Shown piece by piece: positions 59,001 through 62,000 of a stretch of DNA of 64,000 bases; positions within the stretch are counted from its first letter, which is position 1; the number at the start of each line of letters is the position of its first letter. The stretch comes from a virus (Duplodnaviria > Heunggongvirae > Uroviricota > Caudoviricetes), in the IMG/VR virus record IMGVR_UViG_2537562172_000006. One strand, written 5' to 3'. Made by a program: the position numbers.

Positions 59001-62000
59001 AATAGCGCGGACACTGTGCATAAGATGCCAGCGTCGCACGCAATGCCCCTGGACCGAATGCCAGCCCCCTGACGGCGAGATCCTGCATCAGGTCGTCGAA
59101 TATCCCCACCTTAAGCGGCTTCGGTGCTTCCCGGCTGAATAATTCAGGCCACAACTCAGTGAGGCGGTTAATGCGCCTGCGGTTTTTGCGCTGGCGCTTG
59201 GTCATATGCCGCCACGGTGTCGCCCCTGTGGGCTTCTGCTGCGCTTTCTGGTTACCGGGCATCACTTTATGCGCCGACGTGGTTTTATCCTGCTCCTGTG
59301 CCGCCTGCGTCGTTTTCTGCGGCGTGCCATAAATGCCTTTCGGTTTTCTGTTAATGGTCAGCTTAGTCATGCTTTGCCCCATCGTTACAACTGTCTACCA
59401 ACTGTCTACCGATATAATTGATTGATTTATTTAATGTTATTAACTCATAACAAAAAAACAATCTGCAAACTGTCTACTAACTGTCTACCGCATTAATACA
59501 TTGATAATTAATGATTTTTACTAAATGGTAGACAGTGTAGACAGTTAAAAGAGAAATTTAAAAAATGAACCCTTAACTATCTGTTTTTTTATATACCCCC
59601 CGTGGTTTAGGAATATAGAAATAACTGCCCACCTCTCTACCACATTAAAAATACCTATATAATTCAAAACATTAATTAGTAGATGGTTGGTAGAGGGTTA
59701 AGTGTATCTGTCTACCAACCGTCTACTTTTAAGTTTCAACTTATAAATTTCGTATCATGTTCTGTCGTTAATGCCTGCCGCTGCTGGTAACCATCCATCA
59801 GCATCTTTATCTAACAGAACATTTGTGATCGTTCGCCCTTTATCTGGACCTTTAGTGCATTTAGCCCGCTTGTACTCCTTTCCGTACTCAGCCATTGCCC
59901 CTGGCATATCTGTACCAAAGCGTGTCAGTGATACCGGTTTTCCCAGACCATGCGCAGACATATAAGCCAAATAAGCATGATACAGATATCGCCTCGGGCT
60001 AAATGGCACTATTTCTGCATTACCTACTATCATCCCCTCACATTTAACCAACGACATCAGATAACCGCAGAAGTCCACCAGCGAATCACCTTCACGCTTT
60101 ATTAACAGTGCTTCTTCTGATTTTTGCTGCTCATAAAGTAGTCTTTTCGCTTCGTCCTGGTCGGCAAATCGTGTAAGCAAATGGCGAATCACTACCGCCA
60201 GTTCGCCTTCTATTTTTTCCACCAGCATGGGATCGCGTTCGTTCTCCGGTACGACCTCAGAGAAATTAAATATCACCCTACGACGCGAGATCCCTCCACT
60301 GCGATCACTGAATGACATGGCGTTATTGTTTACTGCCAGCACTACCGCCGGAATACGTGTGGAGTAGGGGGCTTTATGTTTCGGGTCGATTGCCACCTTG
60401 TCACCGCCTGTAATGGCCTTAATCCCAGCACCATCACCTGCGTAGCGGGTCATGTCAGGCATGATAATCAGAGAATATCCCACCACTAACGCTCGTTCCC
60501 TCGCGTCTTCCAGCGCCTTCATGCTCGCCGATACTGTATTGGCCTTACCCGCCAGCATGGTACAAATCTCCGCCATCACACTTTTACCGCTTCCGCCCGG
60601 CCCCGTTACCTCAAGGAATAACTGCCAGTCGTACCGGTTCGCCAGTACCATGAATAATGCCGCCAGTACGCGATCCGCTTTACGATCGTTATTTGCCACC
60701 GAACGACGCAGCCACTTCCAGAAATTCGGCGCATGTGTTGCCAGCGTTTCCCCCTCTGCTGGTGGGCTGAACGGTAATTCACTGGCATTTAACAACCAGT
60801 CATTTTTGTTATGCTCCCGAAAATTTCCTGTCCGGGTATCAAATACCCCGTTACTGAATCCAATAAGATTCCTGTCTGCCCCGCCCATAACAGGCAGGCT
60901 CAATTTCATTGTGTCTACGGCAAATTTAATGGCGTTTTGCGAATAACTGATTCCAGCATCAATAAAAATCTTCGCCATAGACCGCTGGAGTTCCTTATCA
61001 GATACAGGCTCCCAGACAATTCCGTTGTAATGGTGAACTACATCAGAATCGTCATTTATAGCCAGTGCCCTTCCATAATATTCAAGCAATACTTCCCCTC
61101 TCTGGCTGGCTCCCATCTGATTTAGTGCTGGCCTGGGTAGGTCACTATTTTTTGTGACTAATTTCATCGCTGAAACTTCCCCGCGCTCTGCCTGTTCGCG
61201 GATCCGTTGCAGGTAATCGCGCCAGTTCTCCGGCTCCCGGTCGGTGATGCCTTTGTATAATTTCGCCTCCTGTACGCCAGCCAGTGCCAGCTTTTCGGCG
61301 ATAGCGTTGATCTGAATTGGTTCGATCTCCCCTGCGATATAGACACGCGCAAAGCGGCGCCCTTCGTCGATAATGCGGATGTTCGCCAGGTCTGCCAGTT
61401 GCTTCGGCCCCAGGTAAACAGGTGGTACGTTATCGCCGTGTTTTCGTCCTTCGCTTTCAATCCAGTGTTGAGCATGGGCGTAAGCATCCGTCCCGGCAAA
61501 AATGATTACCTCAGTGAATTTATCCTTCGGCTGATATTTTAAATTCGGGGCGTTTTTCACTTCTTACCTCCCGCAACCAACATTGCCCGGATTTTTTTAA
61601 TATTCGTGGCTGCACGTCTCGCCACCGCCTGTTGTTTGTTTTCCACCAGAATAAAATCACGCTCAAACTGACGGCGCGGCATTACGCAGTCATATTCGTA
61701 AGCCTCACGGCGGTAGGTGATATTGCCTGGCGTAACGTGACGAATAACCACTCGTCCCCCACGTCTGGTGTCGCGGTAAATATCGCCGTGTTTGATTTCA
61801 GGCCGAGCGGGGCCGCTGGCAGTAAAGCCAGAATTTTTCTTTTTCATGGTTTTTTACTCCTGCGTCTTGCTCTGAATTACCTGATAACCGCAATCGGTCA
61901 GCAATTCGATAAATTCCGGCAATGTGCCGAAACAGCAATCATCACGCAGACGTTCGCGGGATACCTCAACGCCGTTTTCATAATGGCTCACCATGCGTCC

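What the first reader, a model, noticed from the sequence alone, without database searches (positions are those of the whole stretch)
59385..59730. Iteron-type origin immediately downstream of the SF3 helicase
At least eight CTGTCTAC/GTAGACAG units in both orientations within an AT-rich ~340 bp. The adjacent helicase has no obvious primase domain, suggesting a host- or helper-primed, iteron-dependent replicon as in PICI-type elements.
Basis: partly seen in the sequence, partly recalled or inferred. Interest (0 to 1): 0.45.

Follow-up and report, generated by a model that had tools for sequence, protein, structure and literature searches.

The report
Replication origin of a phage satellite

Summary
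The 372-bp gap 59383-59754 has GC 0.27-0.40. It carries 7 exact CTGTCTAC units, against 0.67 expected in the whole window, plus 5-6 degenerate ones. They form six pairs in both orientations around AT-rich spacers. The first unit lies 28 bp after the stop of a 601-aa SF3 helicase.

The island is a Gram-negative PICI. Its gene order matches EcCICFT073, and the attachment core of the published EcCIDI14 sits at 52354-52379. In EcCICFT073 the equivalent gap, with pri-rep, was shown to drive plasmid replication. That gap uses the same TGTCTACC core although its Pri-Rep is only 44% identical.

The helicase is most likely its own initiator. Residues 146-592 are 49% identical to P4 alpha, and residues 491-592 match the solved P4 origin-binding domain. 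Across about 85 relatives, the 8-mer repeated downstream of the gene tracks a 7-residue segment of that domain with only marginal, low-count exceptions.

P4's zinc-ribbon and Toprim primase region is replaced by a 125-aa Toprim-like module without conserved acidic residues. "No obvious primase" is therefore fair, and host priming is inferred.

Verdict: a new member of a known kind, of low interest.

The parts
59383..59754 (.). Origin of replication: the whole intergenic gap between the Pri-Rep stop and the ProQ/FinO start
   Evidence: AT-rich (GC 0.27-0.40). Holds 12-13 iterons. Same position and same iteron core as the validated EcCICFT073 ori. No Rfam match, no DnaA box and no GATC.
59389..59411 (+). 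Iteron pair 1: AACTGTCTACC twice, 11-bp period
59457..59490 (+). Iteron group 2: degenerate AACAATCTGCA, then AACTGTCTACT and AACTGTCTACC, 11-bp period
   Evidence: family D2
59526..59546 (-). Iteron pair 3 in inverted orientation: GGTAGACAG and TGTAGACAG, 9-bp period
   Evidence: family D6
59547..59621 (.). Central spacer with A and T tracts between the two iteron sets; candidate melting region
   Evidence: GC 0.27-0.30 in 200-bp windows; 40-bp AT content up to 0.78. The published PICI ori layout has iteron sets flanking an AT-rich region (PMC6092414, PMC9371898). The role is inferred. The spacers at 59411-59467 and 59643-59677 are at least as AT-rich.
59622..59642 (+). Iteron pair 4, decayed in this copy: AACTGCCCACC and TCTCTACC
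   Evidence: Relatives L005, L008 and L009 read AACTGTCTACC here.
59678..59699 (-). Iteron pair 5, degenerate and inverted: GTAGATGG and GTAGAGGG
   Evidence: Forms a 17-bp, 94% complementary palindrome with pair 6 (inverted repeat I6).
59706..59728 (+). Iteron pair 6: ATCTGTCTACC and AACCGTCTACT; ends 28 bp from the Pri-Rep stop codon
59755..61560 (-). Pri-Rep-type replication protein, 601 aa: SF3 helicase that is also the presumed initiator
   Evidence: Pfam D5_N 156-285, DUF5906 319-427, Pox_D5 490-567. 44% identical to EcCICFT073 Pri-Rep. Residues 146-592 are 49% identical to P4 alpha 327-769. Matches PDB 7OLA, SaPI5 PriRep, at E 5e-10.
59785..60090 (-). C-terminal origin-binding domain, aa 491-592
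   Evidence: phmmer hit to PDB 1KA8, the C-terminal domain of P4 alpha, at E 1.1e-18. All 7 alignment columns that fully separate TGTCTACC-class from TGTTCACC-class proteins fall at residues 504-578.
59818..59871 (-). Candidate specificity segment, aa 564-581 (KRAKCTKGPDKGRTITNV)
   Evidence: The 7-residue signature ending in invariant N580 tracks the iteron class in about 85 loci. This segment is 76-92% identical within the class in close relatives but 25-48% between classes, while the helicase core stays 86-88%. Sequence confirmed.
61186..61560 (-). N-terminal 125-aa module that replaces P4's primase region; Toprim-like fold, probably not catalytic
58840..59382 (-). First gene after the origin: ProQ/FinO-family protein, followed by PerC at 58556-58843
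   Evidence: Pfam ProQ E 6e-24 and PerC E 2e-32; RefSeq annotation of the identical copy
52354..52379 (-). PICI attachment-site core that marks the distal end of the island, next to smrA
   Evidence: Exact match to the att core of EcCIDI14 in Table S1 of PMC6092414

Best explanation
The 372-bp gap is the vegetative replication origin of a Gram-negative phage-inducible chromosomal island. The 601-aa protein encoded just upstream is both initiator and replicative helicase. Its C-terminal winged-helix origin-binding domain, homologous to that of P4 alpha, is proposed to recognise the TGTCTACC iterons. These are arranged as six pairs in both orientations. Multiple copies assemble on the two iteron sets, the AT-rich DNA between them melts, and the SF3 ATPase ring loads itself and unwinds. 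The protein has lost the zinc-ribbon and Toprim primase of P4 alpha. It keeps only a small Toprim-like module without conserved catalytic acids, so primers most likely come from host DnaG and synthesis from host Pol III. What is shown here: the repeat anatomy and its statistics, the domain homologies, the identity of the iteron core with a validated origin, and the co-variation between iteron and origin-binding domain. What is inferred: binding, melting, self-loading, and the source of primers.
For: There are 7 exact CTGTCTAC units in 340 bp, against 0.67 expected in 64 kb. In all, 12-13 units form six pairs of both orientations around AT-rich spacers. The island order is int, alpA, antA, icd-like, DUF4222, Pri-Rep, gap, ProQ, PerC, morphogenesis genes. 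This matches EcCICFT073. A published PICI att core lies at 52354-52379.

Fillol-Salom 2018 (PMC6092414) states that GN PICI origins lie immediately 3' of the replication gene, with two iteron sets flanking an AT-rich region. That paper showed the EcCICFT073 pri-rep-ori cassette keeps a ts plasmid alive, and that rep or ori mutants do not. I read that origin directly. It has 10 TGTCTACC or TATCTACC units in both orientations, and they occur nowhere else in that island. Its Pri-Rep is only 44% identical to the window's.

Residues 491-592 hit PDB 1KA8, the P4 alpha C-terminal domain, at E 1e-18. The ATPase hits SaPI5 PriRep 7OLA. SaPI Reps are described as self-loading SF3 helicases whose C-terminal winged helix binds iterons placed just after rep (PMC9371898).

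In the loci examined, the most frequent 8-mer of the 450 bp after the gene belongs to one of five classes in nearly every case: TGTCTACC, TGTTCACC (the P4 type-1 repeat), TCTCCACC, TGTCCGCC or TGTCCACC. A few loci have only 2-3 copies of any 8-mer. The class follows a 7-residue signature in the C-terminal domain with only marginal, low-count exceptions. Three loci examined afterwards fit the same signature-to-iteron pairing. All 7 fully class-separating columns out of 456 aligned positions lie in residues 504-578. Loci with an equally close helicase core (86-88%) but the other iteron class have a 35-40% identical segment, against 76% within the class. A related whole PICI is deposited as a 10.8-kb circular 'plasmid'.
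Against: Nothing was tested experimentally for this allele. Among close relatives (90-95% identical origins), iteron columns are no better conserved than spacer columns: 17% against 20% variable, p = 0.56. The co-variation is confounded by shared ancestry, and the counts are loci, not independent events. The AlphaFold model of the C-terminal domain was unusable (pLDDT 37.6), so calling the specificity segment a 'wing' is unproven. One iteron of the helicase-proximal set is decayed in this copy. In P4 the cluster in this position is crr, an accessory cis element, and not the origin proper. Loss of primase activity is inferred from missing motifs only.
Confidence: 0.85

Rival explanations
1. The cluster is a crr-like accessory cis element, as in P4, where the repeats just after the alpha gene enhance replication from an origin 4.5 kb away. 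The true origin of this island would then lie elsewhere.
For: In P4 the cluster immediately 3' of alpha is crr (4291-4590). The annotated origin is at 9086-9809. The window protein is a close relative of alpha.
Against: A scan of the complete identical copy (L001, 24.5 kb) and of the window finds no second cluster, only isolated single copies. In EcCICFT073 the equivalent gap plus pri-rep was sufficient for plasmid maintenance. The part of this island beyond 64000 was checked only through L001.
Confidence: 0.05
2. The repeats are mainly operator sites of a promoter region that controls the downstream ProQ-PerC-morphogenesis genes. They would be bound by Pri-Rep or another regulator for transcription control, not for replication.
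For: The gap lies directly upstream of the ProQ start. One sigma-70-like site on the gene strand (59639-59612) overlaps an iteron. Iteron-binding initiators often autoregulate (general knowledge).
Against: Promoter-like sites are no more frequent than in shuffles: 2 found against 2.1 expected. The repeat class follows the helicase's DNA-binding domain. It does not follow the downstream gene: ProQ follows the origin here, a hypothetical gene and SSB follow it in CFT073, and a capsid fusion gene lies downstream in L091. A regulatory side role is not excluded.
Confidence: 0.05
3. The region is a decaying relic of an origin in a defective island and no longer fires.
For: Half of the units are degenerate and one has decayed relative to sister copies. 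Iteron columns are not preferentially conserved among close relatives. Fragments of this origin occur next to IS elements and truncated replication genes in other strains (L008, L009).
Against: The 601-aa ORF is intact and full-length against its homologues. Seven perfect units remain. EcCICFT073's working origin is just as degenerate, with TATCTACC and TCTCTACC variants. The origin is 100% identical in five ETEC genomes and present in 105 of 5426 E. coli genomes.
Confidence: 0.05

Closest known systems
EcCICFT073 pri-rep-ori replicon, the prototype Gram-negative PICI (Fillol-Salom et al. 2018, PMC6092414)
   Same: The gene order around it is the same: icd-like, DUF4222, Pri-Rep, origin, PerC. 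The origin is in the same position. It has the same TGTCTACC/GGTAGACAG core in both orientations around AT-rich DNA. The protein has the same architecture: N-terminal module, D5_N, SF3 ATPase and P4-type origin-binding domain.
   Different: The Pri-Rep proteins are only 44% identical overall and about 30-34% in the origin-binding domain. The origin sequences cannot be aligned apart from the iterons. Spacing is 11 bp here against 9 bp there. ProQ/FinO, not a hypothetical gene plus SSB, follows the origin. The attachment site differs, being that of EcCIDI14.
Satellite phage P4: alpha protein with ori and crr
   Same: The helicase and origin-binding domain are 49% identical to alpha 327-769, and the C-terminal domain matches PDB 1KA8. 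An 8-bp repeat cluster follows the gene directly, as crr does. Many family members use P4's exact TGTTCACC repeat.
   Different: There is no zinc-ribbon or Toprim primase. The iteron is TGTCTACC, not TGTTCACC. There is one cluster, not ori plus crr 4.5 kb apart. The island has PICI gene content, not P4 content: no sid, psu, delta or epsilon were seen.
SaPI origins and Rep/PriRep self-loading helicases (Ubeda et al.; Qiao et al. 2022, PMC9371898)
   Same: The origin lies immediately after rep. It has 6-12 short iterons in two sets around an AT-rich centre, with opposed orientations. The SF3 helicase carries a C-terminal winged-helix initiator domain. The ATPase matches PDB 7OLA.
   Different: Sequence similarity is limited to the ATPase core (E 5e-10). 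SaPI iterons are 5-6 bp. SaPIs encode a real primase, separate or fused. The host and lineage differ.
Iteron plasmids (pSC101, R6K, RK2, P1 type)
   Same: Directly repeated initiator-binding sites sit next to an AT-rich region, with the initiator gene adjacent.
   Different: The initiator here is a helicase, not a Rep_3-type WH-WH protein. No DnaA box, IHF-DnaA arrangement or GATC cluster was found. Iterons are 8-11 bp in both orientations, not 17-22 bp direct repeats.

Membership tests
PICI-type replication origin (SaPI / EcCI type) | Lies immediately 3' of the replication initiator (rep or pri-rep) gene | tested here: met
   The nearest iteron ends at 59727 and the stop codon occupies 59755-59757.
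PICI-type replication origin (SaPI / EcCI type) | Two sets of short iterons flank AT-rich DNA, with units in opposed orientations | tested here: met
   Pairs at 59389, 59468 and 59526(-) lie on one side of the AT-rich 59547-59621. Pairs at 59622, 59678(-) and 59706 lie on the other.
PICI-type replication origin (SaPI / EcCI type) | The cognate initiator is an SF3 helicase with a C-terminal DNA-binding domain specific for the iterons | tested here: inconclusive
   The domains are present and the iteron class co-varies with the C-terminal domain. Binding itself cannot be tested with these tools.
PICI-type replication origin (SaPI / EcCI type) | The rep-ori segment drives autonomous replication | not testable with these tools
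   Shown only for the homologous EcCICFT073 cassette (PMC6092414). A related PICI is deposited as a circular 10.8-kb record.
Gram-negative PICI (the island that hosts the origin) | int, alpA, unidirectional operon with pri-rep, a PICI-specific att site, about 10-15 kb, and packaging or interference genes | tested here: met
   The identical copy L001 has int, an HTH/AlpA gene, antA, icd-like, DUF4222, Pri-Rep, ProQ, PerC and DUF2213. The EcCIDI14 att core lies at 52354-52379. int itself lies outside the window.
P4-like satellite replicon | Alpha protein with zinc-ribbon and Toprim primase fused to the helicase and origin-binding domain | tested here: not met
   The helicase and origin-binding domain are homologous. 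Zn_Ribbon_Prim and Toprim are present in P4 alpha and absent here.
P4-like satellite replicon | Bipartite cis elements (ori and crr) built of TGTTCACC type-1 repeats | tested here: not met
   There is a single cluster and the repeat is TGTCTACC.
Classical iteron plasmid origin | DnaA boxes and a Rep_3-type initiator | tested here: not met
   No DnaA box even with one mismatch. The adjacent protein is an SF3 helicase.

The most novel reading that the evidence does not exclude
Two points go beyond the published description. First, the specificity of P4/PICI-type initiators for their 8-bp iterons may be set by a short, swappable segment of the C-terminal domain. K-G-R-T-I-T-N pairs with TGTCTACC, K-x-G-I-R-S-N with TGTTCACC, K-G-N-M-R-S-N with TCTCCACC and R-G-R-I-Q-S-N with TGTCCGCC. 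That would amount to a readable code for replicon compatibility among co-resident satellites. Second, E. coli PICIs have replaced P4's primase with a catalytically dead Toprim-like module. The module is shared by three unrelated helicase cores: SF3, RepA/AAA_25 and DUF927. It may act as an adaptor that recruits host or helper priming or polymerase machinery.
Probability: 0.35. Interest if true: 0.45.

Novelty: new member of a known kind. Interest (0 to 1): 0.2.

Why it matters
It places this ETEC island among replication-competent phage satellites. It also gives the cis site and the protein needed to build or disable its replicon. The wider comparison yields a practical rule: the repeat after the gene and a 7-residue protein segment predict each other. 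That rule could be used to annotate satellite origins and to predict which co-resident satellites share or avoid each other's initiators. The kind of origin itself has been published since 2018, so nothing here overturns current understanding.

Tried and rejected
1. I tested whether iteron columns are better conserved than spacers among 90-95% identical origins. They are not: 17% against 20% variable columns, p = 0.56. Divergence is too low for this to be informative.

2. An Rfam scan of 58000-64000 at E <= 1 found nothing in the origin. RNA folding gave z of about -6 on both strands. The signal is strand-symmetric and explained by the inverted iterons, so an sRNA reading was dropped.

3. The promoter and terminator scan was not above chance.

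4. DnaA boxes and GATC sites are absent. Two IHF-consensus matches lie in AT-rich DNA and were not pursued.

6. The AlphaFold model of the C-terminal domain had pLDDT 37.6. It is unusable, so 'wing' is not asserted as shown.

7. The eighth CTGTCTAC, at 63109-63116, is isolated and compatible with chance.

8. The first two fetches of CFT073 were at wrong coordinates. They were corrected from Table S1.

9. The EcCIEC2733.1 att core is not present in the window.

Full report
OBSERVATION

The stretch 59385-59730 is the intergenic gap 59383-59754. It lies between the stop of a 601-aa ORF on the minus strand (59755-61560) and the start of a 180-aa ORF (58840-59382).

Exact CTGTCTAC occurs eight times in the 64-kb window. 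Seven of these fall inside 59391-59715. Dinucleotide-preserving shuffles of the whole window give a mean of 0.67 and never more than 4.

Allowing 1-2 mismatches adds units at 59624-59641, 59679-59698 and 59718-59727. The decayed unit at 59624 (ACTGCCCACC) reads ACTGTCTACC in sister copies from other strains.

The anatomy is six pairs, one with a third degenerate unit:
- 59389 (+,+)
- 59468 (+,+, preceded by the degenerate unit)
- 59526 (-,-)
- an AT-rich spacer, 59547-59621
- 59622 (+,+)
- 59678 (-,-)
- 59706 (+,+)

Spacing within a pair is 8-11 bp. GC falls to 0.27-0.40 here, against 0.5-0.6 in the flanks. 'At least eight' needs the degenerate copies.

CONTEXT

The identical sequence occurs in pig ETEC chromosomes. 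The annotated copy reads int, hypothetical gene, HTH regulator, antA, icd-like, hypothetical gene, DUF4222, 'DNA primase family protein', gap, ProQ/FinO, PerC, then DUF2213 and other morphogenesis-type genes.

Pfam gives D5_N, DUF5906 (the SF3 ATPase) and Pox_D5 for the 601-aa protein. It gives ProQ and PerC for the next two genes.

This is the layout of Gram-negative PICIs. The prototype EcCICFT073 reads int, HTH, icd-like, DUF4222, primase-family protein, 289-bp gap, hypothetical gene, SSB, PerC, capsid.

The attachment core listed for the published PICI EcCIDI14 is present exactly at 52354-52379, beside smrA. This fixes the distal end of the island. The integrase lies beyond the window's end.

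WHAT THE LITERATURE ALREADY SAYS

Fillol-Salom et al. 2018 (PMC6092414) report that in GN PICIs the region immediately 3' of the replication gene is the origin. [quoted passage not shown] They also showed that the EcCICFT073 pri-rep-ori segment keeps a temperature-sensitive plasmid alive at 44 C, and that mutants in rep or ori do not.

Qiao et al. 2022 (PMC9371898) describe SaPI Reps as self-loading SF3 helicases. The C-terminal winged helix of these proteins binds 6-12 iterons placed just after rep, around an AT-rich centre.

DIRECT COMPARISON WITH THE VALIDATED ORIGIN

I read the EcCICFT073 gap (L004 6997-7284). It carries TGTCTACC, TATCTACC or TCTCTACC ten times in both orientations. The motif occurs nowhere else in that island.

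The two Pri-Rep proteins are only 44% identical, and the gaps do not align outside the repeats. Retention of the same 8-mer where everything else has diverged is the strongest sign that the repeats are the functional units.

Among close relatives (90-95% identical origins) the iteron columns are not better conserved than the spacers. That test has no power at this divergence.

WHO BINDS THE ITERONS

Residues 146-592 are 49% identical to P4 alpha 327-769. Residues 491-592 match PDB 1KA8, the C-terminal domain of P4 alpha, at E 1e-18. From memory, this is the winged-helix origin-binding domain described by Yeo et al. 2002.

The P4 record annotates 8-bp type-1 repeats in both ori and crr. Read from the sequence they are TGTTCACC.

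I fetched 80 loci that encode relatives from across Enterobacterales and took the 450 bp after each gene for about 50 of them. In nearly every locus the commonest 8-mer belongs to one of five classes. A few loci have only 2-3 copies of any 8-mer. The classes are:
- TGTCTACC
- TGTTCACC
- TCTCCACC
- TGTCCGCC
- TGTCCACC

The class tracks a 7-residue segment that ends in the invariant N580:

| Signature | Iteron class | Loci |
|---|---|---|
| K-G-R/V-x-x-S/T-N | TGTCTACC or TATCTACC | all 10 |
| K-x-G-I/L/M-R/Q-S/T-N | TGTTCACC (includes P4 itself) | all about 58 |
| KGNMRSN | TCTCCACC | 5 of 6 |
| RGRIQSN | TGTCCGCC | 3 of 3 |

The sixth KGNMRSN locus has only 2 copies of any class. Two further loci with only 2 copies of any class are not clearly assigned.

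Of 456 aligned positions, the only seven that fully separate the first two classes lie at residues 504-578. Raoultella, Kluyvera and Klebsiella loci have helicase cores as close to the window's (86-88%) as same-class loci. They use TGTTCACC, and their segment is 35-40% identical to the window's, against 76% within the class.

Three loci examined afterwards fit the same pairing:
- a 10.8-kb circular 'plasmid' record that is a whole PICI
- a particle-derived satellite record
- a second allele in ETEC1732

This is correlative and not corrected for phylogeny. It still points to the helicase's own C-terminal domain as the iteron reader.

ONE CLUSTER OR TWO

In P4 the cluster directly after alpha is crr, and the origin proper lies 4.5 kb away. 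In this island, a scan of the window and of the complete identical copy finds no second cluster. The EcCICFT073 gap was sufficient with pri-rep. The crr-only reading is therefore unlikely.

THE PRIMASE QUESTION

P4 alpha residues 1-326 carry Zn_Ribbon_Prim and Toprim domains. The window protein replaces them with 145 residues that have no Pfam match.

Profile comparison with P4-type primase N-termini finds no homology. Two positions would carry the Toprim acids if the secondary-structure order is followed. They are A22-G23 at the end of strand 1 and residues 78-80 after strand 3. Neither carries conserved acids. This mapping is my inference and not a superposition.

The module is probably a non-catalytic Toprim remnant. 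'No obvious primase domain' is fair. Host priming is the inferred consequence.

A helper-phage primase is unlikely to be needed, because the CFT073 cassette worked in DH5alpha. From my own knowledge, DH5alpha carries a phi80 remnant, so this is not airtight.

OTHER READINGS CHECKED

- Rfam finds nothing in the gap.
- Both strands fold equally well, with z near -6. That is what inverted DNA repeats give, and it is not evidence for an RNA.
- Promoter-like sites are at chance level.
- There are no DnaA boxes or GATC sites, so this is not a classical iteron plasmid origin.

VERDICT

The region is the origin of a PICI. It has the published kind and position, and the same iteron core as the experimentally validated prototype. 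It is served by a divergent allele of the same initiator-helicase family. This origin allele is present in 105 of 5426 complete E. coli genomes and is unannotated there.

It is a new member of a known kind, and interest is low. The iteron-to-segment correspondence and the shared degenerate Toprim-like module are the only parts that may go beyond what is published.

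Noticed in passing
window 61186-61560 (-); L093:4791-6206; P0131, P0138, P0158, P0124, P0136: The N-terminal 125-aa Toprim-like module (MKNAPN...TEVIIFAGxDAYAHA) is fused to three different helicase cores in E. 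coli PICIs. These are the SF3/P4-alpha type (window, CFT073), the RepA/AAA_25 type (EcCIDI14, whose origin uses a different iteron, AAAGTGGGGA) and the DUF927 type. Other family members carry a true P4-type primase, or a third N-terminal type (SDALFSCVYxWVNG).
   Followed up: partly
L091 (NZ_CP148328.1, 1-10790): A 10,790-bp circular record deposited as an E. coli plasmid is a complete PICI. It has int, alpA, icd-like, DUF4222, Pri-Rep, TGTTCACC iterons at about 5550-5790, and a protease/capsid fusion gene. This suggests an excised or replicating episomal form was assembled.
   Followed up: partly
L008 2501-2871 and 3253-3568 (ETEC1732): There are two iteron clusters in tandem. One is a window-type origin next to a RepA-helicase gene fragment. 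The other is a TATCTACC/TGTCTACC cluster after that island's own Pri-Rep allele (signature KGRTQTN). This looks like a recombination scar between two replication modules.
   Followed up: partly
window 58840-59382 (-): A ProQ/FinO-family RNA-chaperone gene is the first gene after the origin, followed by PerC. EcCICFT073 has a hypothetical gene and SSB in this position. No RNA partner was found in the gap.
   Followed up: partly
window 58483-58552 (-): Weak sub-threshold Rfam matches (ncr1175 at E 0.007, Thr_leader at E 0.48) lie just downstream of PerC. They are probably only a terminator-like hairpin.
   Followed up: no
window 52973-54178 (-) and 55441-56478 (-): A 401-aa P-loop ATPase (phrog_6841; weak Orc1/Cdc6 and Sll1717 matches) sits at the distal end of the island and may be accessory or defence cargo. 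The 345-aa ORF, in about the position of the capsid gene in CFT073, hits phrog_196 'baseplate hub' and not a capsid family.
   Followed up: no
window 63108-63117 (-): A single orphan ACTGTCTACG lies in the non-coding stretch between the icd-like gene and antA. It is isolated and compatible with chance. It is conserved in L001 only because the sequences are near-identical.
   Followed up: yes
window 62212-63207 (-): The 331-aa ORF listed here is not annotated in the identical RefSeq copy. That copy has only a 67-aa icd-like gene (62212-62415) followed by about 780 bp of non-coding DNA. Parts of this stretch are 93-95% identical to the EcCICFT073 regulatory region, so it is probably a conserved control region and not a gene.
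   Followed up: no
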